Assembly (NCBI RefSeq): GCF_018977255.1
Contig: NW_024704742.1
Coordinates: forward strand, 47,804,001-47,864,000
DNA: 60,000 nucleotides
DNA from: Callorhinchus milii
Taxonomy: Eukaryota
Reading direction: 5' to 3'
In this document: in pieces, positions 1,977 to 31,326 of the stretch
Layout of the letters: the number at the start of each line of letters is the position of its first letter
Position numbering within the stretch: the stretch's first letter is position 1
Position numbers and translations under genes: made by a program
Notes under the pieces: model-generated
What the model saw: only the letters and a program-made list of their open reading frames with translations
Told to the model about the DNA's origin: nothing
Database searches by the model: none

Positions 1977-2720
1977 ATGACTGAGAGACTTGTAATCCTC
2001 CTGGCGCCACTCTGGATCAGTGGATGTGTCACTGTTGTCAATGGAGAACCGGGGGCAGGAAGGATCCTGTGGAAGAACAGATCAACACTGAATTATATGA
2101 ATGAAAGCGAACTTTTTCTCTATGACACTTTCCCCCAGAGCTTCATGTGGGGCGTGGGGAGTTCTGCCTTTGCTATTGAAGGGGGTTGGGAAAAGGATGG
2201 GAAAGGAGCTTCTGTCTGGGATGATTTGACGCACAGAGAATCCTCCAGGTTTGACAACACAACTGCAGACACTGCCAGTGACAGCTACACTTTCCTACAT
2301 AAAGATCTGGCTGCTCTGGAACACCTGGGAGTCAACTCCTACCTCTTCTCCATCTCGTGGCCCAGGCTGTTCCCAAAGGGAAAGGTAGAAGATGTCAATT
2401 TGAAAGGTCTCCAGTACTACAACAGGCTCATTAACTCCTTGATCCAGAGGCAAATCGAGCCCATAGTCACTCTCTACCATTGGGACCTGCCTTCAATACT
2501 GCAGCAGGAGTATGGAGGCTGGTTGAGTGAGGCTGTGGTTGATATATTTAATGAATACGCTAGATTTTGTTTCCAGAGTTTCGGGGATCGTGTTAGATTC
2601 TGGATTACAATCTACAATCCTCATCTGATCGCCTGGAATGGTTATGAAACAGGCCGGCACCCCCCTGGGGAGAGTGGGAATCGTGCTGCAATGTACACAG
2701 TGGGACACAACCTGATTCAG
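1977..2720 (+). CDS. KLB: Beta-klotho exon 1 (signal peptide, KL1 N-terminal part)
   Basis: MTERLVILL...[12 protein letters not shown]...YTVGHNLIQ; donor CAG|GTAAAG. Confidence 0.95.
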
Positions 2721-5700
2721 GTAAAGTAAACTGCTAAAATGATAGAAATCAAGTTGCAGAGTTTTAAGAATTAAGAAACAAAAAGAATTTTCAGTTTCCC
2801 TATTAATGAAGGAGAAAATGAGGAATGGATGATTTTATTCAGGTGTCCTCATTATAATAATATTAATAATAATATAATAATAATAAAACCAATCCTTGCA
2901 TTTGATATAGAGCCTCATCACGTCTTCGAGATGTCTCAAAGCACTTCATAAAGTATAACGTAAAGTTAATTGAATTGGGGAGGACAAGTTTGCAGGGCTA
3001 TGGGGACGGAGCGAGGGAGTGAGATTGATTTGGATAGTTCTTTTAAGAGAGCCAGCACAGACACGATGGGTCGAATGGCCTCCTTCAGTGCTGTATAATT
3101 CTATGATTCTATGACTGTATATTTGGTGGGCAAAACACGGCAGCCAATTGCGCGCAATGGTGTCCCACAAACAGTCGTAGATTGAGTGACCAAATTATTT
3201 TTTTTATTTTTATTTGGTCCTATTCTGTCTCTGAACCAGAAGGTTGTGGGTTCAAGCTTCCAATTTATATAGTCAAGGGGTGTACTGCATTAATGTATAC
3301 CCCTAGACTACATTTTCAAATGAGACATTAAAACTATTTGTTCAGGTGGACATTAAAGTTCCCATGGTGCTATTTGAAAAGAGAACAGAGTTTCTCCCAG
3401 TGTCCTGACCAGCAACCATTCTAGTAAACAGAATACTGCAGATGCTGGAAATCTGAAATACAAAACCAAAGTCGCTGAGAACACACAGCAAGTCAGGCAG
3501 CATCTATGGAAAGAGGAAAATGAGTTAACGTTTCAGGTCGATGATCTTATGTCAGAATTAGGGGATGTTGGAAGGGAGCAGATTATAAGGACCTTTCCCC
3601 CAGATGCTGCCCGACCTGCTGCGTGTTCCCAGCAACCTCTGCTTTTATTTCAATCCTTCTAGTAAAATTGGTCACTCACCTCATAGCAGTTTGTGGGCAT
3701 TGATATGCACAAATTGGCTGCGTCATTCACTCATCCTACAAAACTTACTGTTTACTGCACTTTACAGTAAATCCTGTGAAGTGCTTTGATATGTGAACGG
3801 TTTTATATTAATTGCTAGGATTATTATTATTACATTATTAAAATCAAAATTGATAGAAATGTTTTGAGATGCTTCGACCTGTTTTATGAAGTAAATGGTA
3901 GGAAACAAAGTCAACTTGTACAAATCATCCTTTAGTTCAATTAATTGAGCCTTGTACACAGAATATATCATGTTATACTGAAGTCCACTTCAGGACTTGA
4001 GGTTATCGACTTGGTTGACACTCCAGTCTAGTACTAGGGGAGCACTGCTTTGTCGGAGGCAACACTTTTCGAATGAAACATTAAAATGAAGTCCTGACAG
4101 TGGATATTGAACATTCCATGATACAATCTGAAATGAAAAGGAAGATCCTGCTAGGTAATCTGGCTGGGTTTTCTCTTCCTCAACTCTTGGAAGGTCAGGA
4201 ACAATTTTGCCTCCCCTCGCAGCCCCAGCTGGAAGCAGCAAACTCAGCACTGACCAACAATAACAATAATAATAATAATAATCCTTGCATTTGATATAGC
4301 GCTTTTCACATCTGGAGGACGTCCCAAAGCGCTTCACGGAACACACTGTAAAGTGAATTGACTGTATATTTGTGGGCGAACGCGGCAGCCAATTGCGCAC
4401 AGTAATGTCCCACAAACAGTCGTAGATTGAAAATGACCAATTTATTATTGTTTTTGGTTTTGGAGGTTATTATTATTAGGCATGTGGAGTAAGGAAACTT
4501 GCCCAAGGTTTCGCCCTGCCTGGAATTGAACTCAGGTCACTCTTGCAAAGCGAGTGCTTTTACCACTGAGCTACAGGACTCCACAATAACAACAACTTAC
4601 ACTTATATAGCTCCCTCCACACAGCCTAGCGTCTCAGAGTGTTCAACAGTGACCAGGATTTGAACCATTTCCAGTTCTTGAGCTGGTCATTAAATCTCAA
4701 AGCACTTCACATGAATTACTGTAAAATGGAGCGTCTTTATTTGTAGGCAAATGGAGCAGCCAGTTTGTACACAGCAATACCCCACAAACAACAACAACAT
4801 GTTGCATTTATGTAGGGCCCATCATGTGGGGTAGCTTCTCAGAGCGCTAAAATAGCTATGAAGTGAATGACCACTTTTATTTGGGAGAATTTGTTGGCCT
4901 GAACACGGGGAGAAACCTCATTCTCTTTTTGAATAGCATCTTGGGATGGTTAAGGTTCAGTTGATCAGGCAGACTGAGCCTTGATTTAACACCTCGTTTA
5001 AAGAATTTCATCTCTGACAATGCAGTGCTCCCCCAGTACTGCACTGGAGTGTCAGCCTAGACTGTGAGCTCAAAGTCCCAACTTGGGGCTAAACCTGACG
5101 CAGCTCAGAGATCGGTGTCATTTCTGAGCTTTGAGCTTCACGTATGCATGTTACTCTCCAGTTGCTTGCCCAAATGGTCAGACATTGCATCTTCAGGACT
5201 AGCCTCTTCCATGCCCAGAAGATTGATTGCGCATACATTCCTTTCTCAAATCCAGCACTGCTGGAACCCTTACGCCTTTATCATCTCTAGGATCAAATTT
5301 CTAATTTCTCTTTGCTGTTTTCCCAGCTCAATGTCATTTTAAACGTCAAGGTCAGGCACGCCCAAGAATTACAATTCTTGCCAAGTTATTACGTTTCACT
5401 GGCTCCCTGTTCCTCAGCAAATAGATTTTAATATCCTTATTCTTAGTTTCAATCTTTACAAAGCTGCATTCCCCCTATCTGTCGAAGCTTCTCCTACATC
5501 AGAGACCACACTTTGGCTGTGATGGCTCTGGCTCTGCACTGCTCATTCTGCTCCACCGTCGTGAGTTTCATAATGTAGTGGTTAGAGCACACACCTCACA
5601 AACGAGAGGACCTGGGTTCGATTCCTGGGCAGAGCAAAATCTTAGGCAAGTTTCCTTACTCCATACACCTCTGTTTATCTAGCAGTAAGTAGGAACCCAG

Positions 5701-8700
5701 TTGTTAGTCAATCGGCGCATGATTTTGCACGGGTGATAATCCTTGCCCCCAAAACAAATTGGTCACTCAATCCACGACTGTTTGTGGGACACTGCTGTGC
5801 ACAATTGGCTGCTATGTTTCACCCACAAAATATATAGTCAATTCACTTTATAATCTGTGAAGTGTTTTGAGACGTCTCAATGACATGATCAGGTGCTATA
5901 TCAAATGCAAGGACTATTATTATTATCAAAGGCCAAACCTTCTGCCACCACTTTGCTTTACTACTGTTCTATTTTCAAAAATTAAAGGTCTTTTTTTTTT
6001 TGCCGTGATCTCATGCCTCCAATTTCCTCAAGCACTCTGGGACGCTACCCCGCGTGAAGGGCACTATATAAATGCAAGTTGTTGTTGTTACGTCTTGCCT
6101 GACAACTCCTCAGCCTGCGTCCTCTTCCAAACCAGGAACTGTGCACACATCACCCCTCGTTCAGCTCCATTGGCTTCCTATCTCCCAGCATATCGAATTC
6201 AAATCCTCAATCTCACTTTCAAATCCCTCCACAGCCTTGCCCCTTTTGGAAGATCCTCTGACCCGACTGTCCCAGCCATTCCTTCTACTCAACAAACACC
6301 AGCCTCCTTTAACCATTCTACAACTGCTCTCTGAAACTCTTTCAAGGAAGTTTCTGCTCCCCTCTCCCCTCCCTTCCCTCCTCCCCACCATTAAAACTCA
6401 CCTTAAGATCTGTATTTTCTATTGTACTTTCGGACAACTTCCTGGTTTTCACAGGTGTTGGTTCACTTTTACTGCCCTTTCCATTTCATGTAATGTTATT
6501 CCTCCTTTTTGTAACGTGCAATTAGTGTGAAATTCAAAAGGGGAGTTTTAAAAGTCTGAAGAATAGTTACGGTAGAATAGTTGCATTTTATTTAAATGTA
6601 ACAACAAAGAATCAGTAATAATGACTGTATTTTAATGAATACAAATTTCCTAGCTGTCTGCTCAATTTAAATTGCAGTCATGTGCCACCTAGTGACAGAT
6701 CAGTCAAGACAAACTTCTCATTATATGATCTTCATAGGGATATGAAATGAATGGCATTTCTGAGTACACCCCAGTGCAGGGACTATTGAACATGAGCAAC
6801 CTACTTTGTGATTACTATGTGTCATAGACACAAGAGGTCTGGATATAATTCCACATATAGGAACTGCTACAATGTTAAAAGGAAAAAATTATATTGTGAA
6901 TTGAGAAAGAGAAATTATAGAGACGTATAAAACAATTAATTGTTGGGGGAAATTTGTTTCTTATATCTTGGAGTCTAAATTAAGGTGTTTTGAACAACAA
7001 CAAGTTGCCTTTATATAGTCCCTTTCACGTCAGGAGGACGTCCCAAGGAGGACGTCCCAAAGGAACTAAGGAATCTGGAAGTATGTCAAACTAGCTCATG
7101 GGAACTCTGCTCTGATGAAGTATTTCTAGTTACCAGTGTTAATTATCATATTGTATATCACATTGTTCACTGCTTTTTAAAAAATATATATTTGATAAAA
7201 GCAACTATCTGTGATGTTGCACTAAACAATAAAGACCAGGATCATTGCAGGATCGATACCTGGTCCGATCTGAATCAGCTGACTTTAGCTGAGATAGTCA
7301 AAGGGGGGAGGGCATTGCAATTGGTCTCGGTGTGTCTGAGCTGGGTGAAGAGTAAACATCAGTCAGTTCCTGCTCATGATCACATGCCGTAATCTCTGCT
7401 GGAATGTATTTATATGCATATTGATGACAAGATCAGACTCAGCTTGGCACTTGGCCTAAGAATGAGAGGACTGTCAGCCACTGTTGAATGGCATCCCAGA
7501 ATTTGACAGATTCTTAAATAAAGCCTTCATTTCTGAATCTGGTTTTCTGTAGGTTAAGAGTTTCAAAAAACTAATTTCAAAATTAGGACTGAGAATCCAA
7601 ACCAAGCTGAGATTTCAATGCATCCCACCGACACATGGAAATTACAGAGATAGGTTGTTGGAATGGAATGCGCACTCTCTCCCTGGAAGGACACATCCTG
7701 CTTACCTAACTCCGGAGACTATTAGGCGCAGGTTGGCAAGAGCCAAGGCTTGGGGACCCTAGACTGTGCGTTGGGAAACTGCTGGAGTCTAACCAACTAA
7801 AACCGTATAGCCAGGCGAGCAGGTCAAACCTACAGAGCCAGTTTTACAAAGCATTCGTGAGTGAGATAAATTCCACCAAAGTATTTGTTCAGGTGTGGCT
7901 CAGCTTCATAGTGATCCAAGAGGGGATGTTAATTTTCTCATGTGATTTGCAATGTTGTTTTGAAGGCTGACAGCTCTGTCTCGTTTATTTCAGGCACATG
8001 CTAAGGCATGGCACACCTATGACACTCATTTTCGCAAATCACAAAAAGGGTTTGTATCCTTGGTGCTGGGATCCCATTGGATCGAGCCAAAGACAGCAAG
8101 TGTCAGCTATGAACATTTCCAGACTTTGATGGACCAGGTGCTGGGATGGTTTGCCAAACCAATCTTTGTGGATGGTGATTACCCTGACAGTTTCAAGAAT
8201 GAAATCAACTCTCCTACTTTCACTGAAAAAGAAAGGAACTACATCAAAGGAACAGCGGACTTCTTTGCATTCTCTTTTGGGCCAGATAATTTCCGATCTC
8301 TGAACCACCTGGTCAGCCTAAGACATCATGCATCTCTCCACCTTGGTCGGGTCCTGAATTGGATAAAGTTAGAATACAATGACCCCAGGATTCTCATTGC
8401 TGAGAATGGCTGGTTTTCCAACAGCCATGTTAAAACAGAAGACACCACTGCTCTATACCTTATGAAAAAATTTGTAAATGAAGTGTTACGAGGTGAATAT
8501 AATTTATGTTTAATCTCTCTGGGTATCCATCACAATTTCTCTGTTTGTCCATTGCACCTTCTCTGTCTATTACATTGTCTGTTTCTGTCTTTCTGATTGT
8601 CCATTACAACCTCCGTCTATCAATTATAAACTGTCTGTCTGTTTGTCTGTCTGTCTCTCTGTCAGTCAGTCTCCCTGTCAGTCAGTCTCTTTGTCTGCCT

Positions 8701-11700
8701 GTTGTTTTACTTAAATGAAACAATTAAAATGACTATTGATGTCAACCAGTCAACCTGGCTCATCAGCAGGATTTGGAGGTTCCCACTGGGAACAGGGGTT
8801 CTTCCCACTTAGCACTTGTTACCCATATAAGACAAAGCCCTAATGGTTAGGGCAGTCCGAGTTGGCCATGCAAAGGGCAGCTTTCTCGATGTACTCAATG
8901 ATAATCAGTACTGTTTTAGCTGGTTAATGGTAAACCAAGCTGGAAAACCAAGTGTAACAATCGTACATAACACCCCAAAAGTCCACGAAACTTGCTTGTA
9001 AAATATTATGTTAAGAAATCTTTATGGGATGTTTTCTTGGGACTTGTCCTGAAGGAGGGAGGGGTGCAAAATTGGAGGAAGGCCTTCCGCACTTGTTAAA
9101 ATTCATGGTNAAAAAAAATCATGTTGTAATGTTCCTGTACTGCCATGTAAAAAAACTCGCCCAGAATCACAGTTGATCAGTGTTAATGGTAAATAATTAA
9201 GCATGTGACTAGGAAGCTGGTATATACAACAATGTTATATTTTCCGGTGCCTGATTCATCATTTATTCTGTTTTATTTATTTTCTTTCTGTTTAGCTATC
9301 CGCTTCAATGAAGTGAATGTATTTGGTTACACTGCCTGGTCGCTGCTGGATGGTTTTGAATGGCAGTACGGCTACAAGATTGCGAGGGGGTTGTTTTATG
9401 TGGACTTTAGCAGTAAAGAGAAGTCCAGGATCCCCAAATCCTCCGCTTTATTCTACAAACAGATTATAGAACAAAATGGTTTTCCGCTAACTGAGATCAC
9501 CCAGCATGTGCATGGAACATTTCCCTGTAACTTCTCATGGGGAATTGCAGACACAGTGCTGCAGGTGAGGAGATTGCCTCATTTTGGAATTATATACTGT
9601 ATCTTCTTAAATTGTTCCTAAATGTTTGATCACTCTCATGGACCTAGAGTTAGCAATTAATGTTTGTCTGGCGAGAGAAACTATAAGGACCTTTTGCAGA
9701 AGTAGAGATAATTTCAGTGCCATCAGTGGTGACAAGATAAACCCTCAGCCCTCCATTATCCTGTAGGAGAAAGTGAGAATGTGTGACATTTGTTTTACTA
9801 AGGTGATATAGCAGATGTCTCAAAGCGCCTCACAGGATATATTGTAAAGTAGATTGGCTATGTATATAGTGGATTAAGCGCTGTGGGACGCTATTCTGTG
9901 TGAAGAGTGCTATATAAATGCAAGTTGTTGTTGGCATTGTGAAACACAGCAGTCAATTTGCAACCAGTAACATCCCACAAATATGGAGTGATGATCAATT
10001 TTATTTTGGGGATTGTTGGCCAGGACAGCGGGAGAAACTCCCATCTCTTTTTGAATAGTGCCGTTTAACATTAACAGACAGAAGTCTTAGTTCAACGTCT
10101 CATCCGAAGGATGGGGTGAATTAGCCTGAATTCCTGCTCCTGATCACTATACAGTGCTCTTTGCTGAAAACTGCATCTAGTTTGCACCAAAAAATGGGTC
10201 ACTCACTCCATGGCTGTTTCTGAGACTCTGCTCTGCACAATTGGCTGCCGTGTTTCGCCCACAAAATACTCAGTCAATCCACTTTACAGTATATCCTTTT
10301 TGATTGAATGGATTGCTGACACTCATAGTCAAGACTCACAAATAAATAATGACTACTTGGCCACGGGGAATGGGGGTGGGGTGAGGGGGCAACTGGTGCC
10401 TGTGAAACTCCAGGATAATAAAACTGTAATCACAACATCATGCAGAGAGGAAGGGCAGGCAAGAAAATTTGGAAGCAAATCAAAAGCAAAAATTGAAATA
10501 TCTGAAAGGAGAAGCAAATTCAGGCTTAAAAAAACAAATGTGATAAGTGGATCCAAAACTCCAACTGATATGCTGTTTGTTTTTTGATTGTGGCAGGTAG
10601 AAATGTTGCCCAGCTCCCCTCAATTCATTGATCACAACCTTTACATGTGGAACGTGACAGGAAATGGGGCTTTACACAAAATCAAAGGAACGATGATCAA
10701 GCCTCGTCCATCTCAGTGCACTGACTTCAGCAGTCTGAAGCAACATGTGGCATTGGTGAGGAAACTGAAAGTGAGTCACTACAGCTTTGCCCTTAAGTGG
10801 TCCCAGATATTACCACATGGAGATCTGTCTACTGTCAACAGAGACGTTTTGAGGTATTACAGATGTGTTGTTAGTGAACTATTAAAACTGAACATCGTCT
10901 CTACCATTATTTTGTATCATCCAACGTATCAAGACATTGATTTGCCTGGGCCATTGCTGAGAAATGGAGGGTGGCTCAACAGATCTACCGCCCTCGCTTT
11001 CAATGATTACGGAAACTTGTGTTTCCAGGAATTTGGTAACTTGGTCAAATTCTGGATCACTATGAATGAACCCAACATAAATATTCAGAGGAGCCTCGAT
11101 GCCTATAGGGCAGCACACAACATGATCATTGCACATGCACTGACTTGGCATAAATATAACAAAGAGTATAGGCACCAGTATCATGGTCTTGTGTCCCTGG
11201 CATTACGTGCTGACTGGGCAGAAGCAGCAAATCCCTACTTTGGGACTCACATAACTGCTGCTGAGAGGTTCCTCCAATTCCAAATAGCTTGGTTTGCGGA
11301 CCCCATTTTCAAGACAGGCAACTATCCAGTTGTAATGAGAGAATATATCCTCCACAAATATAAGGAACATCTCTCGAGCTCTTCCTTGCCACACTTCACG
11401 GACGAAGAAAAGCAGATGATTAAAGGAACTGCTGACTTTTTTGCCATCAATCATTTTACCACAAGGCTCATCTTACACAAACCTAAAAATGGAAGCAAGT
11501 ATCAAACAGACCATGACGGAAGTTTGCTAAGAGACGCGACACTACTGAGATTCCACTCCCCCTCCCATTCCTCCTTCCCCTTCCTCTCCCACCCTGAGAT
11601 GACAATTGCACCCTGGGGAATACGTAAAGTGCTGAACTGGATCAAATCGAACTACGGGAATGTGGACATTTACATCACGGCAAATGGGGTGTCCGACAAA

Positions 11701-13140
11701 TCTACCCTGAAGGATGAACTCCGAATCTATTACCACAAAAATTATATCAATGAAGTTTTGAAAGGTGAGGCTTACTGCATATAAATTAAGTAATTAAGTG
11801 GAAATCCAGTTGTTAGTCGATTAGCAGATCGTTTTCTGGGGGTAATAATTCCTCAAAAAAAAATTTGGTCACTCAGTCCACGACTGTTTGTGGGAGACTG
11901 CTGTGCACAATTGGCTGCTGGGCTTCACCCACAAAATACACAGTCAATCCTCTTTACGATATATTCTGTGAAGCACTTTGAGACATCTCAATGACGTGAT
12001 AAGGCACTATATAATAATAATAATCCTTGCATTTGATATAGCACCTTATCACGTCTTCAAAGCCCTTCACAGAATATACTGTAAAGTGAATTGATAGTAT
12101 ATTTTGTGGGCGAAATGCATATATCAAATGCAAGGATTATTATTGTTACTATTAATAAGACGTATGATATATGATTTATTGCCCAAAAGTGAGCCAGATG
12201 TTTAAAATCAGATAGAATTAATTGGTGAAAATATGATTTTTCATTTGTTACATTACTCTCTGGTTCAAATGCAGTCTAAATTTTGCACTATATTACATTT
12301 TTAAGATGACTCTTACTGATGCTCTTGGGTGTGGCTGGAAGAGGGCAGGGAGTCACAGAGTGAGGATAATGCTCTTACTCATAAGGAAAGAGCAAGCAAA
12401 AATCAGAATGTGAGGGAAACCTGTGCTCTCTCGTACAATTTATAGAACCTATTTATAGACTACTATTGGCAAAGGACTGGAACAGACACGCGACTACCGT
12501 AGGAGCCTGGGAATGCTTTATGTCAGGTGGTCCAACCTTTTGGCTGCTGAGGGCCGGACGCCCTATTTGAGAAACGTCCGCGGGCCATTTGCAATACTTT
12601 TGTGTTTCCCTTCCAGAAACATAACACAACATTTATGGATTATAGAGGGAGAGGGTGGGCCAGATTAAATGGATGGAGGGGCCAGATGGATCACCCTGCT
12701 TTATGTGATCGGGAAAATGATAACAAAAATGAGTCAATTTATTATAAATATCTGTACAGTATTTATTGTGAAGCCAATGTTACTTTGTGTTCACAGCACA
12801 ACTATTCGACCAAGTCAATGTCAAGGGCTACTACGCTTGGAAATTAAAGGATACAGAGATACATGTGCCCTTGGTTGGATTCTTCATTGTTGCTAACTCT
12901 GGATTGAAACCCAAGACCTCAGTGGAGTTTTACAACAAACTTATCAGAAACAATGGCTTTCCTTCGGGAGATGCAGACAACCAATGTTCCACAGACAGAC
13001 AGATACATTGTGAATGGTGCATTCTTATCTTAAAGAAAAAACCTTTGATGTTCTTTGGAGTCTGTATCCTTTTCACCGCAGTAATGTTCGCTGCAATCAT
13101 CATCATTCACAAAAGAAAGCGAAGAAAAGCCTTTTGCTAA
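1977..13140 (+). CDS. KLB: Beta-klotho, 5 coding exons: 1977-2720, 7994-8492, 9296-9564, 10597-11764, 12797-13140 (3024 nt, 1007 aa)
   Basis: Signal peptide, two GH1-like domains (KL1 TIYNP/IAENG; KL2 TMNEP/ITANG, each lacking one catalytic Glu), C-terminal TM helix and short basic tail; all introns GT-AG with consistent phases; synteny with RPL9/LIAS/UGDH. Confidence 0.95.
2975..3115 (+). mobile_element. CR1-type 3' tail nested in a minus-strand SINE (another copy on - strand ~21670-21980)
   Basis: GATGGGTCGAATGGCCTCCTTC...(ATTCTATG)n end; SINE sequence resumes on both sides. Confidence 0.7.
4262..4583 (-). mobile_element. Full-length tRNA-derived SINE (same family)
   Basis: Reverse complement of family sequence. 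Confidence 0.9.
7994..8492 (+). CDS. KLB: Beta-klotho exon 2
   Basis: Acceptor [21 protein letters not shown]...IAENGWF...VNEVLR; donor G|GTGAAT. Confidence 0.95.
9296..9564 (+). CDS. KLB: Beta-klotho exon 3
   Basis: 269 nt; [22 protein letters not shown]...[13 protein letters not shown] boundaries. Confidence 0.95.
10597..11764 (+). CDS. KLB: Beta-klotho exon 4 (KL2)
   Basis: [10 protein letters not shown]...WITMNEPN...YITANG...INEVLK; donor G|GTGAGG. Confidence 0.95.
12524..12698. mobile_element. Non-autonomous hAT-type MITE in KLB intron 4
   Basis: TIRs CAGGTGGTCCA / TGGATCACCCTG; perfect 8-bp TSD CTTTATGT (12516-12523, 12699-12706). Confidence 0.8.
12797..13140 (+). CDS. KLB: Beta-klotho exon 5 (KL2 end, TM, tail)
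   Basis: Acceptor [19 protein letters not shown]...[34 protein letters not shown]. Confidence 0.93.
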
Positions 13141-18960: not shown

Positions 18961-20724
18961 ACTTTGAGACATTCTCCTGATGTGAAAAATGCTGTATGAA
19001 ATTACCATAATTTCAATATTTATTTATATTGCTCTTTGTATTGGTACAATGGTCAAACTTGTCATTGAGCACTGTCTCAGTCCTATCTGAATTTATTCTA
19101 CTTATATTAATTTCTTACAACATCTAACATAATTTCTGGTTTTCCTTCATTAATAATAGTTTATCAAAGCATTAGCTCCTATCTCTTAGATATCCAATTT
19201 AAATTAATCCTAGTATTTCTATTTTTGTATAACAGTTTAGTGAGTCGTTCATTATGGGCAGATGAGGGTGAGTTTCTTTAGTTTCCTATGTTTCCCCAGT
19301 TACCCAATGTAGCAACAAACCATTTAAAACACACTCATTAAAGTCAGTTACCCTTTTGATTATTTCAATCTTTTTCACATTGGAGTAAGATTACATTCAA
19401 CCTCAATCACAATCAATTGCTTATTCCTCTGCAATCTGATTTTAGCACCTACTCCTCTCCAAGTGAATGGAGATTGGAGATTAATGTAGGGATGGAATTT
19501 TTATTGTTTAAAATATTGTGTGAATTATGTCTCATTCTTAGGATGGTCATGATAAAATACATGTGTTATAAACTTTGAATATTTATTTATGTTCACCTCT
19601 TGCAAAAGCCCAGCAACAGTTCCTGTAAATAAAATCCATATAATCTCTGTATTCTTGGAATCTGTATTTATATTCATCAGTCTTACTGAGTATGTTCCTG
19701 AGAAATTAGCACTTACCTGTAATAGTTGTTAGGCATACTGGATTTTACATGGTACCATGCTACCAACCCTCTCCAAAAAGCAAATCTTACAACATCAGAC
19801 ATTGACAAGTTGAAATAATATACCCAATATATTTACATAAAGATAACAAATTAACTGTGCTATCGGCTCAATATGTTGCAATATCAAATAGAAAATACGT
19901 AATGTGTAATTTACCATTTCAACCGCCTGGTTCATTTGTCCTTTGAACACACCTGCTGCCTTCCTTTTATAAACACATTGAAAGTACTTTAAGTTTTTCA
20001 CCTCCTCACTCCTTTACATTCTTATAATTTAAGCCACTCCTCTTGTACTTATTAGATAGCAGTAGTCGATCAAGCTTGAATGATACATTACTGCTTTTCT
20101 AACATTAGAGCAATGGAACTCTAAAATTACCCTTTTCTTTCATTTAAAATAGATTACTGCCAAAATAAGGGGCTCCCTTTGAAGATAGAAATTTACTTTG
20201 ATCTTTACAAGATTTCTGAACTTTGGAAGTTTTGTCCTGACATATTCGCGTGAACAATAATACTTGTGTAGATTAGTTTGCTTCTTTGAAAAATTGGCAT
20301 ATCAGTGTTCACTCTACAGATTATATTCAACGCTAATGGCTAATCAATTAAACTATCAAAATCCATAAGACAGAAAATACTCTTTGATCTCACACAATAG
20401 AAACCACCACTCCATAAAAATCACAATAATCATACCTGCCGCAAAGAAAAATCGCCACAGACCCCAATGTTATGGACATTCTCAAAATATTTTTTTCATG
20501 CAGATTTTCCAGATATTGACCCTACTTGAAAACTGCCGAGGTGTCTTGAAATACATGTTTAGTCAGCCTGGCTCTGTTCTGACGAAAGGTCATTGACCTA
20601 AAAAGTTAACTCATCTCCCTCTCTCCGTTGGTGCTGTCTGACCTGTTGCGCGTTCCCAGCGACTTCTGTGTTTATACCAGATTTCCAGCATCTACAGTAC
20701 TTTGCCTTTGGCGCTGCATATTAA

Positions 20725-21125
20725 CCTGTCTCAGTTGGTAGCACTCTCACCACTGACTGAGAAGGTTGTGGGTTCAAGCACCATGTCGAGACTTTGAACT
20801 CACGTAGTCCAGGTTGACATTCCAATGCAGTTCTGGGGATGTGCTGCATTGTTGGAGGTACTGTCCTTCGGGTGAGACGTTAAATCCAGGATTCATCTGC
20901 CCATTCGGGTGAGTGTTAAATATCCCATGCCACTATTCGAGAAGAGAATGGAGTAAGGCAAACATACCCTCAGATAAAACTGGTCGATCACTTCGTGGTT
21001 GTTTGTAGGTCATAGTTTGCAAATTGGTTGTGGCATTCGCCTACAAATCACACAATCACGACACTTTGCAATATATTCCATGAAGCGTTTTGAGACAGCC
21101 TCCTGATATGAAAGGTGCTTAAATG
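20725..21125 (+). mobile_element. Old DeuSINE-like element (other decayed copies ~3225-3420, 4000-4150, 22810-23130, 23935-24230, 47850-48080, 54380-54700)
   Basis: tRNA-like head then GTGCTGCATTGTTGGAGGT...GAGACGTTAAA...ATCCCATGCCACTATT, resembling the Deu domain as recalled. Confidence 0.65.
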
Positions 21126-23462
21126 TAAAACTTCATTAACATTTAACAGGTGAGATTACAGAAACTGAGAATTTTAATACTAAAAAGAGAAAACTCAGAG
21201 GTGATCTTATTTAGGTATTCAAAACCCTCTTATATTTAGGATGACACAGAGTTTAAATATGGGATGGAGTAAACATTACTAGATTTACTGAATTTGGATT
21301 TATACTTCAGGGCAAAATGGATTGCTCTTCTATCTGCGGCAATAGAATTGAGTGTTGGAATTATTGGATTAAAGTACCTTTAGATGTCATCAATTTTTTT
21401 AATGTGTTATTTTGTAGATATTGCTATGCTGCAAATAAATTACAGTCATAATATATTTCACGCTTCCACACTGCCAGCTGTGCACCATCATTTGATTTAA
21501 TAAAGAGTTATAATAAATATCCTTTCTGCATATTAGATGAAGTCTATTTTCTTAGGATGGTAATAAAAAATAGACTTCAATGTAACAGGTAAATACAAAT
21601 ACATCATTTCAAAGGCATTCTATCTAGAACATAAATCTACAGAACTAGTTAGTTCAGACCAACATTGAATCATAGAATTATAGAATCGTACAGCACAGCA
21701 GGAGGCCATTCAGCCCATCATGTTTGTGCTGGCTCTTTGTAAGAGCTACCAACTAGCTCCACTCCCCCACTCTTACCCCATAGTCCTTTCCAAGTACATA
21801 TCCAATTCCCCGTTGAAAGCTTTCGTTGAATCTGTTTCCACACCTTTTCAGGCTGTGTATTCCAGATCATAATGACTCGCTGGATAAAAAAAACTCTCCT
21901 TGTCTCCCTTTTGGTTCATTTGACAATTATCTTAAATCTGTGTCCTTTGGTTACCAACCCATCTGCCTAAGAAAACATTTTCTCCTTATTTACTAAGTAC
22001 TTTTGTTTTGACCAATTCTTCTGCCTTTTCAACATGGTGAGTTTCTTCCTGCTGGCCAGACTGATGATAAGCAAATGTAAGATTGACACAGTGATTTAAT
22101 TTATCATCACCCCTGAATTTTGATAACTACGTATTGCAAGAAAATTTTAATTATCAACGCTAAATTGCTTCTATATCCACAATGAATTATTTGTGTCCTT
22201 GAATTTTTCATGCTGTGTCCAGTAGATTTTCCCCAGGAACGTCAGAAAAGTTATAATACATTTGAATAGTATTTTTACACTGAAAGCAAGCCAATAAAAC
22301 GATATATTGAATTTTATTGGTTTAAAAATAGCAAATGTTTTGAATTTTCAGATATTTCCTCAAAGTATTTCGAAACCCAGTTTAAAACCATGAATATTCA
22401 GTGAAATATTCAAAGAGAGAATAACAAGCAGAATGGTGAATCTGAGCATGGCATCCTGTCTTTGATTATTTTATTTGGTTGCATTGCTATCTACTAGACT
22501 ATTAAAGCTGAACAAAATGTTCAGTAAGTGAAATAAAACTGGGAGAAATGTATCATGAATAGTTCTTTCATTTACTGTTGTACATGTAGGATAACAATAG
22601 ATGACAACAATCAACCCAGGTTTTATTACATATTTATTACATAACAAGTTGTAAATACATAAAGGCAGTGCAAATAGCTTTTCACTTGCATTTCAACATA
22701 CTTTCGGAGCAGTACCAACATTCATTAACAATCCGTACAAACATTCCTCATTCCTTATATAATCATTTGGGATTCCTTATACCGTCCCACATCGGGACTA
22801 TCGACTCACAGTCCAGGCTGGCACCCAATACAGTGCTTGGGGGTGTGCTGCATTGTCAGAGGTGTCATCCTTTGGCTGAGACATTAAACCAAGCATAAAG
22901 ATCCCATAGCACTATTCAGAAAGAGAAGAAAGTTTCTTCTGGTGTCCTCTTTTACAAATCATTAAATGAAATTGGTTATTAATTTTTTTCATGGCTGCTT
23001 GTGGGATATTGTTGTGTGAAATTAGCCTCTGCAATAATCTGCAAAATACACAGTCATTACACTTTACAGTAAATACTGTGAAGTGCTTTAAGGCGTCCTC
23101 CTGACATGAAAGACATTATATCAAATATAAGGATTATTGTTATTATTTCTCACTCTCTATTGCTCTACATTACTCCTGCAATTTTTGTTGTTAAAAATCT
23201 ATCAAGCTTTCAAAGAAAAAAATGGCTCCTCATGAACTGAATCTGTACTACTTTAGCTTCTTTTGTACATGGGAGCTCAGATTGCTTTGTGCAAGATTCC
23301 TATGTGCAAAGGAATACCCTTAAGCCTTGCTAAACACAGGGACTTATCCAGTTCCTTTCGAACAATTCTATTGATCCAGTTTCTTGTGTAATTAATTCCA
23401 AACCCCAACAACTCTTTAAAAGAAGAATTACCTAAATTGCCTACAAAATACAGTCAGTACAC

Positions 23463-23780
23463 TTTACAACAACAACTTGTATTTATATAGCAGAGTAGCG
23501 TCTCAGAGCGCTTAACAGTGGCGGAGCCTGACTCCGAGCTGGGGGAGGGGAGAGGTGGCCATAAGCACGGTCGAACAGGAACGTTTTCAGGTGGGATTGG
23601 AAAAAGGGGAGAGAGGGGACAAGGTGGAGGGATTGAGGGAGAGTGTTCCAGAGCTTCGGGGCGTAGTGGCTGAAAGCGCGATCTCCAATGGTAGAGCGGT
23701 GCGAATGACAAGCAGGAGGCCGATGACAGTTGAGCGGAGGTGCCAGGTGGTAGATTAGGGCATGAGAAAGTTGGAGAGGT
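23463..23780 (-). mobile_element. L2 3'-end fragment
   Basis: RAFSHYAPKLWNTLP...LKTFLF on minus strand with (TTG)n tail. Confidence 0.75.
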
Positions 23781-24822
23781 AGTCCATATAAAATAGTTTT
23801 TGCCCATCTACCCAATCAAGACTTTTCTACCGCATTGCCCCTCAATCACCTCTGATCCAGTGGAGAAAGCTTCAACTTGGCCAGACACTTTACATTGTCT
23901 CACATCTGATATCTTAGCAATGAATCTGTGATATTTTCAGATGAAACGTTAACCCGAGGTCCTGCCTATCTATTCAGGTGGACGCCAAAGAATCCAAGGC
24001 ACTATTTGAAAAGAGAAGGGATCTCTCCTGGTGTCCTGGCCAACAACCCCCCCAAATAAAAATTGGTCACTTACTCTATGGCTGTTTGTGGGGCATTGCT
24101 GTGCGCAATTGGGCTGCCCTGTTCACCTACGAACATACAGTCACATCATTTTACAGTAAATCCTGAGAAGTGCTTTGAGACTTCTTTCCTACGAGCGGTG
24201 AAAGCGCTATCTATACCAAATACAAGGATCGGTACTATTAAGAGTTAAAAACAAGAGACCCAACGAGTGCACAAATATAAATTAAGTTGGTTCTCTGAAG
24301 CCCTGGATGGTATGTATGGATTCACACTAGTTGTGTGCTTGAGGGCAGGTCTGAATGACTGCATCAAAACTTTCACTGAGACCTTCAGCTTTTGTGTTGC
24401 ACATCACAGATCCTCTAACTCGCTTTCCCATCAGAAACCTGCGACTTCAACCCAGCAGCACATCCAACGTCAGTGTCTTGCTGCAGAGCTGAACACTTCA
24501 AACCTTACAACTAAACCTAGCCTTTACTCTGGAGTTTGCAAAATGATGGTTCTGTGAAAAAAAACGTAAAATTGATTTATATTTTTCGTTCCTGGACGCC
24601 AATATTCTTCTTTTTTTTGGTGTTTTAGTGATTTTGTTTTCCNAAAAAAAAGCAAAGCAGGACATTTCTGTCAATTTTACATGTCATGGATAAGACAGAC
24701 AAGACTGAAGGAAGTTGGCTGGGTGCAAAGGCGATGGATGGATAAGTCATTATAACAGGGCTGTGGCTGCCAAACTGCCAAACAGTAAAATATTCGCTGG
24801 ATTGAGTTTGTTTTTGTTTCAG

Positions 24823-26375
24823 ATTTGTATCAGACTGTGAGGATCTTTCTTTACTGCCTCCTGTTTATGCTGAGTGTGTTGGGCAATGTGCTGATCATCA
24901 CGGTGCTGCTGAGGAACAAGCGGCTGCGGACAGTGACCAACACTTTCCTGCTCTCCCTGGCGGTCAGCGACCTGATGCTGTGTTTCTTCTGTATCCCCTT
25001 CACCCTCATCTCCAACCTGCTCGAGGATTTCATCTTCGGGAGCGCCGTCTGCAAAGCTGTGCCTTACTTCATGGGTAAAAAAAATACACACACGCACACA
25101 AATAGCACGATCTGTAAAAAAAATTAAGCACATAATCTGTCAAAGCTGTTCCTCCTTTTAAATCCCAATTGTGATTATTCACTCGAGTGTAATTAGTTAA
25201 AGCAGGGAACCTTTTATATATAAAATATCTATTTTGCTGAATTTGGAGTTGGGAACAAATGGGACAGCCAGTGAAGCTTATTAAATCTAGATATCTGTTA
25301 CAATAATAATAATCCTTCACATTTGATATAGCGCCATTGAGACATCTCAAAGCATTTCGCAGAATATACTGTAGAGTCAATTGACTATATTTTGTGGGCA
25401 AAATACGGCGGCCAATTGCACACAGCAGTGTCCCACAAACAGTCATGGATTGATTGATCAAATTATTATTAATTTTGTCAGTGCTTGATGTGATTTGGAT
25501 ATAATTCAGCACTCTGGGACCTTACCCTGCGTGAAGGGCACTATATAAATGCGCGTTGTTGTTGATGTAATTTTGTTGTTGTTATAAAAACTCACTAATT
25601 GTCAAAATCGACACAACTTTACCCTTCATTTACATGCTTCTCTCAGCCTGTTTCTCTGTTAGCACAAACCAATTTTATTCTCCAAAAGGCAGGAGGAGAG
25701 AAGCTGAGAAGCATGGCATCTCTGGAATCTTTATTACAACTGGATATTTATTAGCAGTCAGGCTGAACCGAGAGGCAGTACACAGCAATACAAAATAGCT
25801 GTTAGTATTAATGAATTAGGTTTGCTCCTTGGCTCTTTGTTTACACGCGGAGCAAAATAGTTCTCATTCTGATTAATGTAATGCAGCCACTGAGATTGTT
25901 ATGTTGTTGTTGCCACATTTCTATTATGTTATTATGATATTATCACTATCCTGATAATAATAATAATGCTTGCATTTGATGTAGTGCCTTATCATGTCAT
26001 CGAGATTTCTGATTGGGGAAGTGCAGGATTTAAATCTTGTTAGATTTTTTGGGGGCTGCAATTTTAATAATTATCTTCGGCTTGCTGATTTGGATTCATA
26101 CTCAAAACGGTTGGCGAGCTTTTGATAAAGTTTCTGCGGGCAGAATTCTGTCTGGGACCGCAATTTCATTCATTCATCTGCTCTCCTACACCTCTGCCTG
26201 TGTAAATCCCATCATCTGCTGTTTCATGAACAAGCGATTCCGTATGGCTTTCCTGGCAACTTTTACTTGTGGCACCAAAAAGCAAGCACATATTCGGGAA
26301 ATAGAGGAGGAAGCGGGTACAACTGGTAGCTCTATCTCCAGGTGTACCAATGTCAGTGTGTCAGCTCCCTGTTGA
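24823..26375 (+). pseudogene. CCKAR: Internally deleted cholecystokinin A receptor-like locus: exon 2 equivalent 24823-25074 (TM1-TM2-start of TM3) plus 3' part of last exon ~26100-26375 (ECL3, TM7, tail)
   Basis: DLYQTVRIFLYCLLFMLSVLGN...RNKRLRTVTNTFLLSLAVSDLMLC...FIFGSAVCK (252-nt exon, AG/GT intact); NGWRAFD...SFIHLLSYTSACVNPIICCFMNKRFR...EEEAGTTGSSISR; no recognisable TM3-TM6 sequence in the ~1 kb between. Confidence 0.8.
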
Positions 26376-26754
26376 CTGCTAAATACTACATCTGCACATA
26401 GTCTTTAAGTAAGGAATTTACACAAGTAGGATGTGTTTGTTATTTAGTGCCCCTGCATCAGTTGTTTATATTTACATGGAATGTAACTTTTGAAGGTATA
26501 AAAGGTATTTTGGTCTATTGCCTAAGTGTTGCTTCAAATATTCTACAAATGGAGTAATGAGGGTGAGCAGATGGTCTACATGGGAGAAACATTTAGTGTT
26601 CAACAACATTTTAAGGAAGGTATCCTGGCACCATTTGACTATTCATGCAACATTCATCATTGTTATTTTCCATTTCCCATGAAGTAGACAGGATTGGACC
26701 ATTTATCAAGTGGTTTTGGTGCTGCATTGAAGAACATTAATAATAATCATTCAA

Positions 26755-27225
26755 AACTCCGCCACCCGTGTTCTCACCTGAACCAAACTTCGTACCCCAA
26801 TTACTCCAGTTCTTACCAAACTTCACTGGCTCCCCGTCACAGAGCAGATCGACTTCAAGATCCTCACTCTAGTGTTTACATCCCTTGGCACCCCCTATCT
26901 CTCAAATCTCCTCTCTCCCCACAGCAGTACCCTTGGCCTCCGCTCTACTGGCTCCGGCCTCCTCCGTGTCCCCCAAATACTTTGCTCCACAATCAGCGGC
27001 TGTGCCTTCAGCCACTATGCCCCGAAACTTTGGAACTCCCTCCCTCAACCCCTTCACCTCGCCCCCTCCTTCCCCATCTCAGGTCGCGGCTGCAGACCTT
27101 TCTCTTCGAGTGAGCCTATGGTCACCTTCCCCTCCCCCGGCTCGGCCTCGGGTTCCGCTACTGTTAAGTGCTCTGAGACGGCGCCCGGCATGGAGGGCAC
27201 TACATAAATGCAAGTCGTGTTGTTG
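26755..27225 (+). mobile_element. L2 3'-end fragment
   Basis: Same 3' sequence as 45715 copy; AFSHYAPKLWNSLP. Confidence 0.75.
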
Positions 27226-27364
27226 TCTGTGCTTCGTCCTGCTTCATCTTGCTGTAATGTTTCAACACTGTGTTAATGTGCTAAATTGGGAGGGAATTCA
27301 TGTTATCATTGTCTGAGATAAATTTTGCCATCGCAAGGAAGAGGATAAAATTACTGTTATGTTT

Positions 27365-27670
27365 GGAGTCCTGTAGCTCAGTGGTTAGAGCATTCACCTT
27401 GCAAGCGAGAGACCTGAGTTCAATTCCAGGCAGGGCGAAACCTTGGGCAAGTTTTCTTACTCCACACGCCTAATAATAATCCCTCCAAAACAAAATAATA
27501 AATTGGTCATTTTCAATCCACGACTGTCTGTGGGACACTGCTGTGCGCAATTGGCTGCCACGTTTCACCCACAAATATACAGTCAATTCACTTTACACAT
27601 AAATTCTGTGAAACACTTTGAGACTCGAAATGTGAAAAGCGTTATATCAAATGCAAGGATTATTATTATT
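27365..27670 (+). mobile_element. tRNA-derived SINE (same family)
   Basis: GGAGTCCTGTAGCTCAGTGG head to (ATT)n tail. Confidence 0.88.
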
Positions 27671-28159
27671 GTTGTAATCGTTGCATTTGATATACCTTAT
27701 CACATCCTCGAGACCCACAAATAGTTGTGGATTGTGTGACCAAATTATTATTACTCTTAGAATTTTTTTAAGGGATTATTATCCCCAGAAAAGTGATCCG
27801 CCAATAGACTAACAAAGGGGTTCATATTTACTGTTAGGTAAACAGAGGCTTGAGGAGAAAGGAAACTTGCCTACGGTCGAGTTAAAAACTTGCAGAAGCA
27901 TTTGAATTGTGTGTAATGCCTTTTTGGGGGTACTCTGGTGCTGCCATGGCAACCTTGGAGCTCACAAAACCATTTGCAACAGACACAAACAGGAAACATC
28001 TTCTCAGATGTCTTCTGAAGTTCTTTTGAGAAACATAAATTTGTAATTCAATCCTCCATCAGTCCAGTAGTGATTTGATTTATGTTGTACTTCTTAGCCA
28101 GTCTATGAACACAGAGAGCTTTACTTAATTGCTGGCAGATACAATTTTACATCTGCAAA

Positions 28160-28890
28160 AAAAATTGTCCTCTCCTGCACTAGGCTGCCCAACCCTATCA
28201 CCCCATCCTGGCCCAACTCCACTGGCTTCCCATCACACAGAGGATACAGTTCAAGATCCTGGTCCTCACCTTCAAAGCTCCACGGTGTTGCTCCCCCCTC
28301 CCATCCTGTTCGCTCCCTCCGCTCAGCAGAATCTGGCCTGCTTCACACCCCCCATCTCACTCACCCCACTATTGGCAGGCGGGCCTTCCACCACTCTGCC
28401 CCCACTGTGTAATTCCATCCTGCAGTCCCTATGCCTCAACCCCTCCCTTGCCTCTTTCAAGACCCATCTCAAAACCCTCCTCTTCAACCATACCTTTGAT
28501 CACTGCCCTTCCCCCCCCCCCCCCATCCAAACCTCAGCTCGGGTCAAAAACACTGTCTATCCAGCACCTTGGGATGTCCTCCCAACGTGAAAGGCGCTTT
28601 ACAAAGGTAAATTTGTTTTATTCTGTGATGGGAATTCAGTGGAGTTGGGCGAGGATGGGCGATAGGTGTCGCGGAGGAGAGGACACGGGCTGCAGAGTTC
28701 TGGATGATCTGCAGACTATGGAGAGAGGAGTTGGGGAGGCCAACAAACAGCGAGTTTGCGTAGTCCATTCTGGATGTCATGAATCGTGTACAAGGGTTTC
28801 GACGGCCTGCCGTGTGAGACAGTGGCAGAGCCGGGCAATGTAGCAGAGGTAGGGGAAGGCAGAGCAGGTCATGGTATGGATGTGGGGTAG
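28160..28890. mobile_element. Two L2 fragments in opposite orientation (+ ~28160-28620; - ~28625-28890)
   Basis: FKTHLKTLLF on + strand; SRMDYANSL...IQNSAARVL on - strand. Confidence 0.7.
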
Positions 28891-29349
28891 AAAGGATAGT
28901 TAAAAATAAATGTTTAATGGGAATTCATTTTATAATTTGGAAAAAATTGGAAATTATAACGAATGCCAATATTTGCTAAAAAAATTAGAAGCCAGCAAAT
29001 CTAGTTATACCTTAATTAGGTGGAATGTCCTAAACATCTTAGCAATTTAACATTTGCAAGAATTAAATTTATACCACATTCACAGGGAAATGCATGGCAG
29101 CCAAGACCTGGAGACAAGAATTTTAGGCCAAGCCTACATGCTGCAACTCTGTCAAGGCATCAAGGTGCAGCTATCAGAATAACAGGAATCCGTAATTTAT
29201 CTCCATTCAATTTTTTGAAAGAACTCTTCAATCATGTTGGATGTAATACAAACCCCAGGAATTGCGATGCTTTTGAAGATTTAGTCATTACAATCAGTTC
29301 CAGCCACACCACTAAAACACACTGAACACAACATTGAGTGCACAGAATA

Positions 29350-29355
29350 TTTATT
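29350..29355 (-). terminator. Polyadenylation signal for distal RPL9 exon
   Basis: AATAAA on minus strand ~35 nt after the TAA of exon b. Confidence 0.7.
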
Positions 29356-29389
29356 TCAGCCAGTGACTCGGTTCCAAGAGTTCACGGCT

Positions 29390-29521
<132 letters not shown>

Positions 29522-31326
29522 TTAGTACCGTAGTCTAGAGGTCCAGAAACAGTAAAGCACCAAGGAGGTAGTTTATCTGAAGGTTCAAAAAGCAATGTTA
29601 GTATAGAAAGCAAACAAAGCAATATTAGTACAACTTTGCAGATTCCAGGAAAGATGTTTGGTGATAGTTTCCCTTTAATAGTTGGTTCTACCACTAAAAA
29701 TGATGCTTAGAAGACCAACTCCAGGGTCTAGACCAATCGCAGCCAATAGGCTAGGGTAGGGTAGGGTAGGCCAATCGCAGCACTTTAGCTGCAGCTCTGT
29801 CTGAGAACTATCGTAGCACAAAATTAGGATTCAAACTAATGATCGACTCGTCTGTATAGATTGGAGGTGATGTGTTCTAATACACTGGCCCATCAAGGGA
29901 GCCCAGCTCTTCTAAGTACCTATATAGGTCTTTTTGCTTTGGGAGAAATGTACATAAAAACCTGAGATTTCTGGATTAAATAATGCCTAATATGACCAGT
30001 TTCTACATTTTTTCTCCTGTATATCTGTTTAGCCAAGTCACATCAATATTAAATAGATATTAACCATCAAGAGGAATTTCCCATGTTCTCTCATCAGAAT
30101 GGTCCAAAATGTAGATACTCCACAATGGAAACCAAGCAGGTAGAATGAACGCATGATTAAAATCGGTTTATCTTCTCGATACGTTATTCCCTAAGCACCT
30201 AACTACTCACAGCCTCTAACAAGGGACACTGAAGCAAAAGGCAACCATAATGCTGCCTTTATATTACAGCTTTACCAATAGCAGCATTACTGCCACTGTG
30301 GGCAAATCTTCAATGAAGGTGCAGCAAACTACCTGGAGGAGTCTGGAGCTTCAAACAGCAGTCAGTTGACTAAAAGATAGATTTTTATTTTATGCATATG
30401 CTAAGAATGGCATACATAAAACACCATTACAATTACTGCTAACTGGGCAAAAACTGGAACTTCCGGCAGGAAGCTGTAGTTCAAGCAGAAAGCTATCCTA
30501 ATTAAGAGACTGGCTTCATATATGAGAGAGAAGGAATTATAGAAGGGGTGTATGTACCCTCATGTGGCCCATTTCTGTGCTGTAACAACCTATAAATTAG
30601 TCAATTCACTTTACAGTTTATTCTGTGAAGCACTTTGAGATGGTCTCAAAGCGATAAGGAGGTATATCAAATTATTATTTTATTATAATTGTATAAAAAA
30701 GGCCAGGAGGAACTGTATTTAGACAAATCACCTGCCACCATCGGCAAACTCTTTTAGAAGTTTATTTCCATGATTGCAGTTATGAAATAAAAAGGGAGAG
30801 GTTCAACAAAAAGATTTTTTTAAAAAGCGAAAGAAGCAAGGTAACAACTGAGATGTATTTTGGTTTAGATCAGAAGTTAGTCTGCTATTGTAAATGCTAT
30901 TTTAAATTAGCTTGGGGAGGAAACTAAGTTTTTTTATTATTTTTTGCTAAGTGTTAATAAAGGTACATATTTTAATGTACAATTTGCTGTTTCATGCAGT
31001 TAGTAGTCACCTTACAAGAAGTTGATCACACACTTTAGAAAAACAAAGGATTACTGTTTGGTCGTTCTGGTGGTCAGAACAGACACACAACAGCAGTCCA
31101 GGTTGTTAAGGGATAAAATCCTTTTATGGGATCGGCTGATAGGACAAACCGAACAAACAGTAACTTAATATAATAAGGCACGTGTGTTAAACCTGGAAAA
31201 GAAAAATGAGCGGCACTGGACAGCTGGATCTGTCTATCCAAATGAAGACGTTCCCTCTTCATACAACTCCATGCATGCCCGTTCCAATGGAGAAGGGCAT
31301 TTTCTAACCTGGAATCCATTGCATCT

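What the first reader, a model, noticed from the sequence alone, without database searches (positions are those of the whole stretch)
24823..26375. Internally deleted CCKAR-like receptor between KLB and RPL9
Seen: a clean 252-nt exon (TM1-TM2-start of TM3) and the 3' end of the last exon (ECL3-TM7-tail) are only ~1 kb apart, with SINE debris and no recognisable TM3-TM6 sequence between them. The class A activation motif NPxxY reads NPIIC, and two prolines recalled from CCKAR are replaced (IPNL to ISNL, GTPIS to GTAIS). Established: in human, KLB abuts RPL9 and CCKAR lies megabases away on the same chromosome arm. Inference: either unitary loss of CCK1 receptor signalling, notable if the host is a stomachless holocephalan, or a decayed duplicate that reveals an old CCKAR-KLB linkage.
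Basis: partly seen in the sequence, partly recalled or inferred. Interest (0 to 1): 0.7.

Follow-up and report, generated by a model that had tools for sequence, protein, structure and literature searches.

The report
Broken spare copy of CCK receptor
This is a dead, partial duplicate of the gut-hormone receptor gene CCKAR in the elephant shark, whose full-length copy is on record on the same chromosome, so it is an ordinary pseudogene and not a loss of the receptor.

Summary
A 252-nt CCKAR exon 2 (24823-25074) lies 1,031 bp from the 3' part of the last exon (26106-26375). Exon 1 and residues 116-330 have no trace between KLB and RPL9. Gene loss is not supported. The window is Callorhinchus milii or very close (KLB 0 of 1007 residues differ), and a full-length C. 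milii CCKAR (XP_007887370.1) is listed on a contig of the same length as KLB, about 49 protein models away. The fragment differs from it at 5 of 172 residues and at 8 of 52 intron-derived codons, so it is a paralog: a lineage-specific, unprocessed duplicate that later decayed. The two 'lost prolines' are shared with the intact gene; only NPxxY Y-to-C and three other changes are private. No ancient KLB-CCKAR adjacency is shown. The junction was not checked in reads. Side lead: the full-length receptor itself has rare changes at ligand-pocket sites (P101S, T118P, F330L). Five look-ups found no earlier scan note on this. Interest 0.17.

The parts
24351..24548 (+). Intron-1 DNA homologous to the intron upstream of exon 2 in the intact C. 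milii gene, but diverged. It shows that the copy was made at DNA level.
   Evidence: The N-terminus of model P0003 was read from intron DNA and aligns here; 8 of 52 intron-derived codons differ
24823..25074 (+). CCKAR exon 2 (TM1, TM2, start of TM3), 252 nt, open, splice sites intact. Private changes D40Y and L92F. Shared with the intact copy: M95I, P101S, T118P (human numbering).
25075..26105 (+). 1,031-bp stretch from the intron-2 donor to the break, with three repeat pieces (25298-25478, 25504-25564, 25929-26013; the SINE label is inferred). Exons 3, 4 and the 5' part of exon 5 are missing.
26042..26043 (+). Cryptic AG in the phase of exon 2, followed by an open hydrophobic stretch that runs into the last-exon piece. 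Probably chance; found after the fact.
   Evidence: an equally hydrophobic in-phase open stretch at 0.6% of 3000 random positions; some open in-phase AG at 51%
26106..26375 (+). 3' part of CCKAR exon 5 (end of TM6, ECL3, TM7, tail, stop), beginning in mid-exon at the N333 codon. Private change A334G. Shared with the intact copy: D344G, P351A.
26217..26219 (+). NPxxY tyrosine (Y370, 7.53) replaced by cysteine; private to this copy
   Evidence: Y in the intact C. milii protein, in 21 of 21 elasmobranchs and in 89 of 90 bony vertebrates; codon TGC
1977..13137 (+). Flanking gene KLB, five coding exons, identical in protein to C. milii XP_007887306.2
29390..35831 (-). Flanking gene RPL9, with two tandem last-exon copies

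Best explanation
The fragment is an unprocessed (duplicated) CCKAR pseudogene. Shown: it keeps intron DNA and splice sites, lacks exon 1 and residues 116-330, has lost the NPxxY tyrosine, and is the sister of a full-length C. milii CCKAR. Inferred history: in the Callorhinchus lineage, after CCKAR had already gained P101S, T118P, D344G and P351A, the gene was copied at DNA level from its usual site further up the chromosome into the KLB-RPL9 gap. Its exons probably stayed under some constraint for a time, because they diverged less than the intron did. It then lost exon 1 and the stretch from intron 2 to mid-exon 5 by deletion. It cannot make a seven-helix receptor and most likely does nothing. 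CCK1 receptor signalling rests on the intact copy.
For: Full-length C. milii CCKAR models exist, in a cluster of 5 of 5 C. milii members. XP_007887370.1 and KLB XP_007887306.2 are both listed on a 139,202,109-base contig. The window matches that KLB at 1007 of 1007 residues, including positions 455, 588 and 643, where two other C. milii records differ. In contrast the CCKAR pieces differ at 5 of 172 residues (Fisher p=7e-5 against 0 of 995) and the upstream intron at 8 of 52 codons, about 8% DNA divergence (95% range 4-14%): too much for alleles. In both trees the fragment is sister to the intact copy with 100% support; 4 of the 5 differences are on the fragment's branch, 3 of them at sites invariant in the 22 other species of the tree. 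In one source's numbering KLB is P005044, LIAS P005048 and CCKAR P004995, so the intact gene is not among the entries between KLB and LIAS and stands 49 entries on the other side (that this order is positional is inferred). Four samples of one study hold 0.52-0.68 of the stretch's words, more than the fifth expected from a 95%-identical paralog alone. If the copy had been dead from the start, about 15 exon changes are expected against 4 seen (p about 0.013).
Against: RefSeq numbers put CCKAR 64 above KLB, on the LIAS side, so the two numbering systems disagree on direction. The junction was not seen in reads, so a mis-join is not excluded. Both pieces are free of stops and frameshifts. The intron estimate rests on 52 codons of an automatic gene model from another record.
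Confidence: 0.86

Rival explanations
1. Assembly artefact: a second, longer CCKAR copy lies here and its middle was lost in a mis-join. It would still be a paralog, and still carry Y7.53C.
For: No read-level view of the junction was obtained. Word sharing with runs X1-X4 cannot see a single junction. Both pieces are open frames with intact splice sites and look constrained.
Against: Exon 1 is also missing from the 11.7 kb upstream to KLB, so two separate collapses are needed. There is no N run in the gap; the nearest N is at 24643. The break is sharp. Private changes hit invariant sites (L92F, A334G, Y370C). No second full-length C. milii CCKAR was among the 120 of 562 hits listed.
Confidence: 0.07
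2. Unitary loss: the window is from a close relative or individual in which this fragment is the only CCKAR.
For: The source genome could not be searched. Holocephalans lack a stomach (recalled, from no call).
Against: KLB is identical at 1007 of 1007 residues to the record that shares a contig length with the intact CCKAR, while the CCKAR intron differs by about 8%. An orthologous locus in a relative close enough to have an identical KLB would not differ so much. The LIAS exon is 100% identical to C. milii.
Confidence: 0.03
3. Living truncated product: exon 2 splices to the cryptic AG at 26042-26043 and gives an in-frame short membrane protein ending in TM7 and the tail, or a regulatory RNA.
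For: The AG is in phase, the frame is open, and the added stretch is more hydrophobic than at 99.4% of 3000 random positions. The exons look constrained.
Against: Found after the fact; some open in-phase AG occurs at 51% of random positions. There is no exon 1 or start codon and no AATAAA or ATTAAA in 26373-27500. The polypyrimidine tract is short. Fusing half of TM3 to the new stretch would invert ECL3 and TM7 (inference).
Confidence: 0.04

Closest known systems
Callorhinchus milii CCKAR, XP_007887370.1 / UniRef A0A4W3IDN1 (P0123, P0003)
   Same: 97% identical over 172 residues; same exon 2 boundary; homologous intron-1 DNA; shares M95I, P101S, T118P, D344G, P351A
   Different: The record is full length (419 aa) with NPxxY intact. 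The fragment lacks exon 1 and residues 116-330 and has D40Y, L92F, A334G, Y370C.
Human CCK1R (CCKAR; PDB 7mby, 7ezh; PMC8208569, PMC9174195)
   Same: Best solved-structure match for both pieces. N333, R336, L347, S348, I352 and Y360 are kept in the last-exon piece.
   Different: TM3-TM6 and ECL2 with R197 are absent, so there is no ligand pocket and no G-protein interface. Y370, which PMC8208569 describes as moving inwards on activation, is cysteine.
Unprocessed (duplicated) pseudogenes as a class (recalled definition)
   Same: Intron and splice-site retention, an intact parent on the same chromosome, disabling deletions
   Different: Nothing of kind. The remaining exons have no stops or frameshifts yet.

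Membership tests
CCKAR (CCK1R) gene lineage | Closer to CCKAR than to CCKBR | tested here: met
   118 against 87 bits; 94 against 70 bits
CCKAR (CCK1R) gene lineage | Groups with chondrichthyan CCKARs in a tree | tested here: met
   Sister to C. milii CCKAR (100, 100) inside the chondrichthyan clade (100, 95), 23 reference proteins. No CCKBR row was in the tree.
Functional CCK1 receptor | Seven transmembrane helices and ECL2 with R197 | tested here: not met
   Residues 116-330 and exon 1 are not found in the KLB-RPL9 interval
Functional CCK1 receptor | NPxxY tyrosine 7.53 | tested here: not met
   Cys in the window; Tyr in the intact copy, 21 of 21 elasmobranchs and 89 of 90 bony vertebrates
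CCKAR ortholog locus | Position between RBPJ and TBC1D19 (human order, recalled) | tested here: not met
   The fragment lies between KLB and RPL9. The neighbours of the intact copy could not be read.
Unitary pseudogene | No intact copy in the same genome | tested here: not met
   Full-length record on a contig of the same length as the KLB that the window matches; record-level evidence only
Unprocessed duplicated pseudogene | Intact parent gene present and diverged from the copy | tested here: met
   5 of 172 exon residues and 8 of 52 intron-derived codons differ; 0 of 1007 in KLB
Unprocessed duplicated pseudogene | Keeps intron DNA and splice sites | tested here: met
   AG and GT at exon 2; intron-1 homology at 24351-24548
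Unprocessed duplicated pseudogene | Disabling lesion real in the genome (reads span the junction) | not tested
   No read-level view of the junction was obtained; only word sharing with four samples
Unprocessed duplicated pseudogene | No functional transcript or protein | not testable with these tools
   No expression data were obtained
Processed (retro) pseudogene | Exons joined without introns, poly(A) tail | tested here: not met
   Splice sites and intron DNA are kept; the exons are not joined

The most novel reading that the evidence does not exclude
CCK1 receptor function has been relaxing in the stomachless Callorhinchus lineage. The full-length receptor carries P101S (Pro in 111 of 111 other species' proteins), T118P (Pro in none of 111) and F330L (Phe in 110 of 110 ungapped), all at CCK-8 contact or activation positions, plus P351A and F218S. 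P101S, T118P and P351A predate the duplication. The dead copy would then be one step in a slow decay, and the 'intact' gene may bind CCK weakly or prefer another ligand. Against this: the core contacts (M121, C196, R197, N333, R336, Y360, W326, Y229, Y370) are all kept, C. milii is the only holocephalan in the set so its private changes are inflated, and Narcine has nearly as many rare core residues (11 against 13).
Probability: 0.2. Interest if true: 0.5.

Novelty: new member of a known kind. Interest (0 to 1): 0.17.

Why it matters
As it stands it matters little. It is an ordinary duplicated pseudogene that none of seven literature searches turned up. It can mislead annotation and CCKAR read mapping in the elephant shark. 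Its one real use is as a time marker: substitutions shared by both copies are older than the duplication, which dates the pocket changes of the intact receptor. If those changes weaken CCK binding, a cartilaginous fish without a stomach would have remodelled the receptor that controls gall bladder, pancreas and satiety (roles recalled). That is testable in a cell assay. The agastric gene-loss papers read here do not mention CCKAR or chimaeras.

Tried and rejected
2) No read or contig alignment over the junction was obtained, so a mis-join stays open. 3) Sequencing-run search: no RNA holder listed. 4) Exon 1 candidates: the short look-alike at 21264-21296 and others scored at shuffle level; rejected. 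5) By eye, the DNA just left of 26106 resembled a decayed TM6. An anchored DNA-level test scored 0 against 80 for the positive control. An unanchored local test was marginal (34 against a 95th percentile of 32) and ended in a repeat piece, out of register. Rejected. 6) Repeat-mediated deletion: the last repeat piece ends 92 bp before the break; no support. 7) ISNL and GTAIS as decay marks: rejected, shared with the intact gene. 8) K105E and D344G as unusual: E is in 11 of 90 and G in 5 of 90 bony vertebrates; dropped from the novel case. 9) Accession adjacency in sharks: the nearest CCKAR-KLB gaps are 53, 60, 159 and 218, and the other 11 species are thousands apart or of different series (Hemitrygon KLB accession not seen); weak, since such numbers are not always positional. 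10) Earlier scan notes: none on CCKAR. 11) Rfam on 26400-38000 found only a tRNA-like repeat head at 27367-27438; the 29404/31338 repeat is not a snoRNA but an RPL9 exon pair. 12) Papers: PMC8208569, PMC9174195, PMC12372087, PMC10991444, PMC5207463 and PMC5126056 were read as term-search passages only; no supplements were opened. Supplementary gene tables of the agastric-fish papers, and subscription papers on CCK receptor evolution, could mention this locus.

Full report
Observation. The two pieces are as described. Exon 24823-25074 is 252 nt long, has an AG before and a GT after it, and is open. The second piece, 26106-26375, is open to a TGA stop. Both match human CCKAR better than CCKBR among solved structures: 118 against 87 bits and 94 against 70 bits. 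The 1,031 bp between them hold three pieces of repeats that recur in the window. tblastn with full-length C. milii CCKAR finds no other coding piece in the 60 kb. A frameshift-tolerant search of 13141-29400 on both strands scored exon 1 and three segments covering residues 116-330 at 33-44, within the maxima of 10 shuffles each (34-49), while exon 2 scored 480. Homology ends sharply at 26106, in the middle of exon 5: an anchored test to the left scored 0, against 80 inside the exon.

Host. The window's KLB equals C. milii XP_007887306.2 at every one of 1007 residues once exon-flank overhangs are set aside. This includes three positions where two other C. milii records differ. A LIAS exon is 100% identical to C. 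milii. Notes on other windows of this genome also call it elephant shark (unchecked AI notes). An unnamed KLB of the same cluster differs at 73 of 1007 residues and shark KLB at 286 of 1000, so an identical KLB points to this species or something very close.

An intact CCKAR exists. The best hit to exon 2 is a 440-aa C. milii protein (120 of 562 hits were listed). Its cluster has 5 of 5 C. milii members, among them XP_007887370.1, 419 aa from Met to stop, listed on a 139,202,109-base contig. KLB and LIAS are listed on a contig of the same length.

The fragment is a paralog, not an allele. The two pieces differ from the intact protein at 5 of 172 residues, against 0 in KLB (Fisher p=7e-5 using 0 of 995). 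One automatic model (P0003) reads its N-terminus from the intron before exon 2; that sequence aligns to 24351-24548 and 24807-24821 and differs at 8 of 52 codons. Simulation puts this at about 8% DNA divergence, 95% range 4-14%. In separate trees of the two pieces with 23 reference CCKARs, each piece is sister to the intact C. milii protein with 100% support (no CCKBR outgroup). Four differences are on the fragment's branch (D40Y, L92F, A334G, Y370C; human numbering through a primate protein that matched all 28 checked positions) and one on the intact branch (position 413).

Where the parent lies. In one source's numbering KLB is P005044, LIAS P005048 and CCKAR P004995. The intact gene is thus not between KLB and LIAS, and stands 49 entries on the far side if that order is positional (inferred). 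RefSeq numbers (306, 310, 370) also exclude the KLB-LIAS slot but point the other way, so the direction is not settled. Unchecked notes place SEL1L3 3.83 Mb and ZCCHC4-ANAPC4 3.94 Mb before this window; in the human order (recalled) CCKAR follows SEL1L3 and RBPJ. That fits an ancestral site a few Mb upstream. CCKAR and KLB are on contigs of equal length in 15 of 15 elasmobranch species for which both were listed, and in none are their accessions adjacent. So the linkage is ordinary conserved synteny, and the adjacency seen here is derived.

How it arose. Intron DNA and splice sites are kept, so this is a DNA-level copy and not a retrocopy. If it had been dead from birth, half of the intron divergence should have fallen on its exons: about 15 amino-acid changes, against 4 seen, with no stop (p about 0.013 after allowing for the uncertain intron estimate). 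The copy was therefore probably complete and constrained for a while, then lost exon 1 and its middle. This step is inferred from 52 codons and is the weakest part of the history. The last repeat piece ends 92 bp short of the break, so a repeat-mediated deletion is not shown.

Is the deletion real? Four samples of one study hold 0.52-0.68 of the sampled words of 24700-26700. A 95%-identical paralog alone would give about a fifth, so this copy's own sequence exists in those animals; one of them could be the source. Word sharing cannot see one junction, and no read-level view was obtained. A mis-join therefore stays possible (7%). Against it: exon 1 is missing too, there is no N run in the gap, and invariant residues are hit.

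A cryptic acceptor. An AG at 26042-26043 is in phase with exon 2 and opens a 21-residue hydrophobic stretch that runs into the last-exon piece. An equally hydrophobic case arose at 0.6% of 3000 random positions, and some open in-phase AG at 51%. It was found after the fact; there is no start exon and no poly(A) hexamer in 26373-27500. I give a living product 4%.

Side lead on the intact receptor. I compared it with 21 elasmobranch proteins and 90 of the 105 non-chondrichthyan proteins listed (those of 395-460 aa). At 28 positions named in PMC8208569 (23 CCK-8 contacts of its Table 1 and 5 activation residues; passages read), it has three rare residues: P101S, T118P and F330L. That ties for the most among 112 sequences; 96 have none. 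PMC9174195 puts P101 in the sulfotyrosine pocket and reports F330A as not activated by the agonist SR146131 (passages). F218S and P351A also hit near-invariant sites. Against relaxation: R197, N333, R336, M121, C196, Y360, W326, Y229 and Y370 are kept; K105E and D344G occur in 11 and 5 of 90 bony vertebrates; Narcine has 11 rare core residues against 13; and C. milii has no close relative in the set. No coding DNA was available for dN/dS. I give relaxed or altered function 20%.

Literature. Seven searches found no paper on this duplicate or on holocephalan CCKAR. PMC12372087 treats CCKBR in agastric species and has 0 mentions of CCKAR or chimaeras. PMC10991444 has 0 mentions of CCK. PMC5207463 and PMC5126056 gave nothing relevant. 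All were read as passages; no supplements were opened, and subscription journals are not covered. That holocephalans lack a stomach is recalled.

Verdict. A real but ordinary duplicated pseudogene (0.86). New member of a known kind. Interest 0.17, most of it from the side lead.

Noticed in passing
window 31445-31338 and 29510-29390, minus strand: RPL9 has two tandem copies of its last coding exon, about 1.9 kb apart and 74% identical in DNA. Both are open, both follow an AG with a pyrimidine tract, and they are nearly identical in protein but end differently. The distal copy has an AATAAA just after its stop. This looks like an old pair of alternative last exons under selection. One literature search listed nothing on it (listing only).
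   Followed up: partly
window 14363-14481, plus strand: Degenerate 74% copy of part of the KLB last exon (12875-12995), 1.5 kb downstream of it, with a short further match near 14510-14530.
   Followed up: no
protein P0123 (C. milii XP_007887370.1), outside the window: The full-length elephant shark CCKAR has rare residues at pocket or activation sites (P101S, T118P, F330L) and at other near-invariant sites (F218S, P351A, M95I).
   Followed up: partly
proteins P0003 and P0124: These automatic C. milii models read their first 51 or so residues from intron DNA in place of the true exon 1, and UniRef names them type B receptor although they are CCKAR.
   Followed up: yes
window 17873-18961: About 1.1 kb minisatellite of short imperfect units, grown from the tail of a repeat element.
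   Followed up: no
window about 39600-41870: C/A-rich low-complexity tract (GC skew -0.78 in 40001-42000) followed by a short tandem array, between RPL9 and LIAS exons.
   Followed up: no
window 27367-27438: tRNA-like head (Rfam RF00005, 44 bits) of an abundant repeat family in the window, probably a SINE.
   Followed up: no
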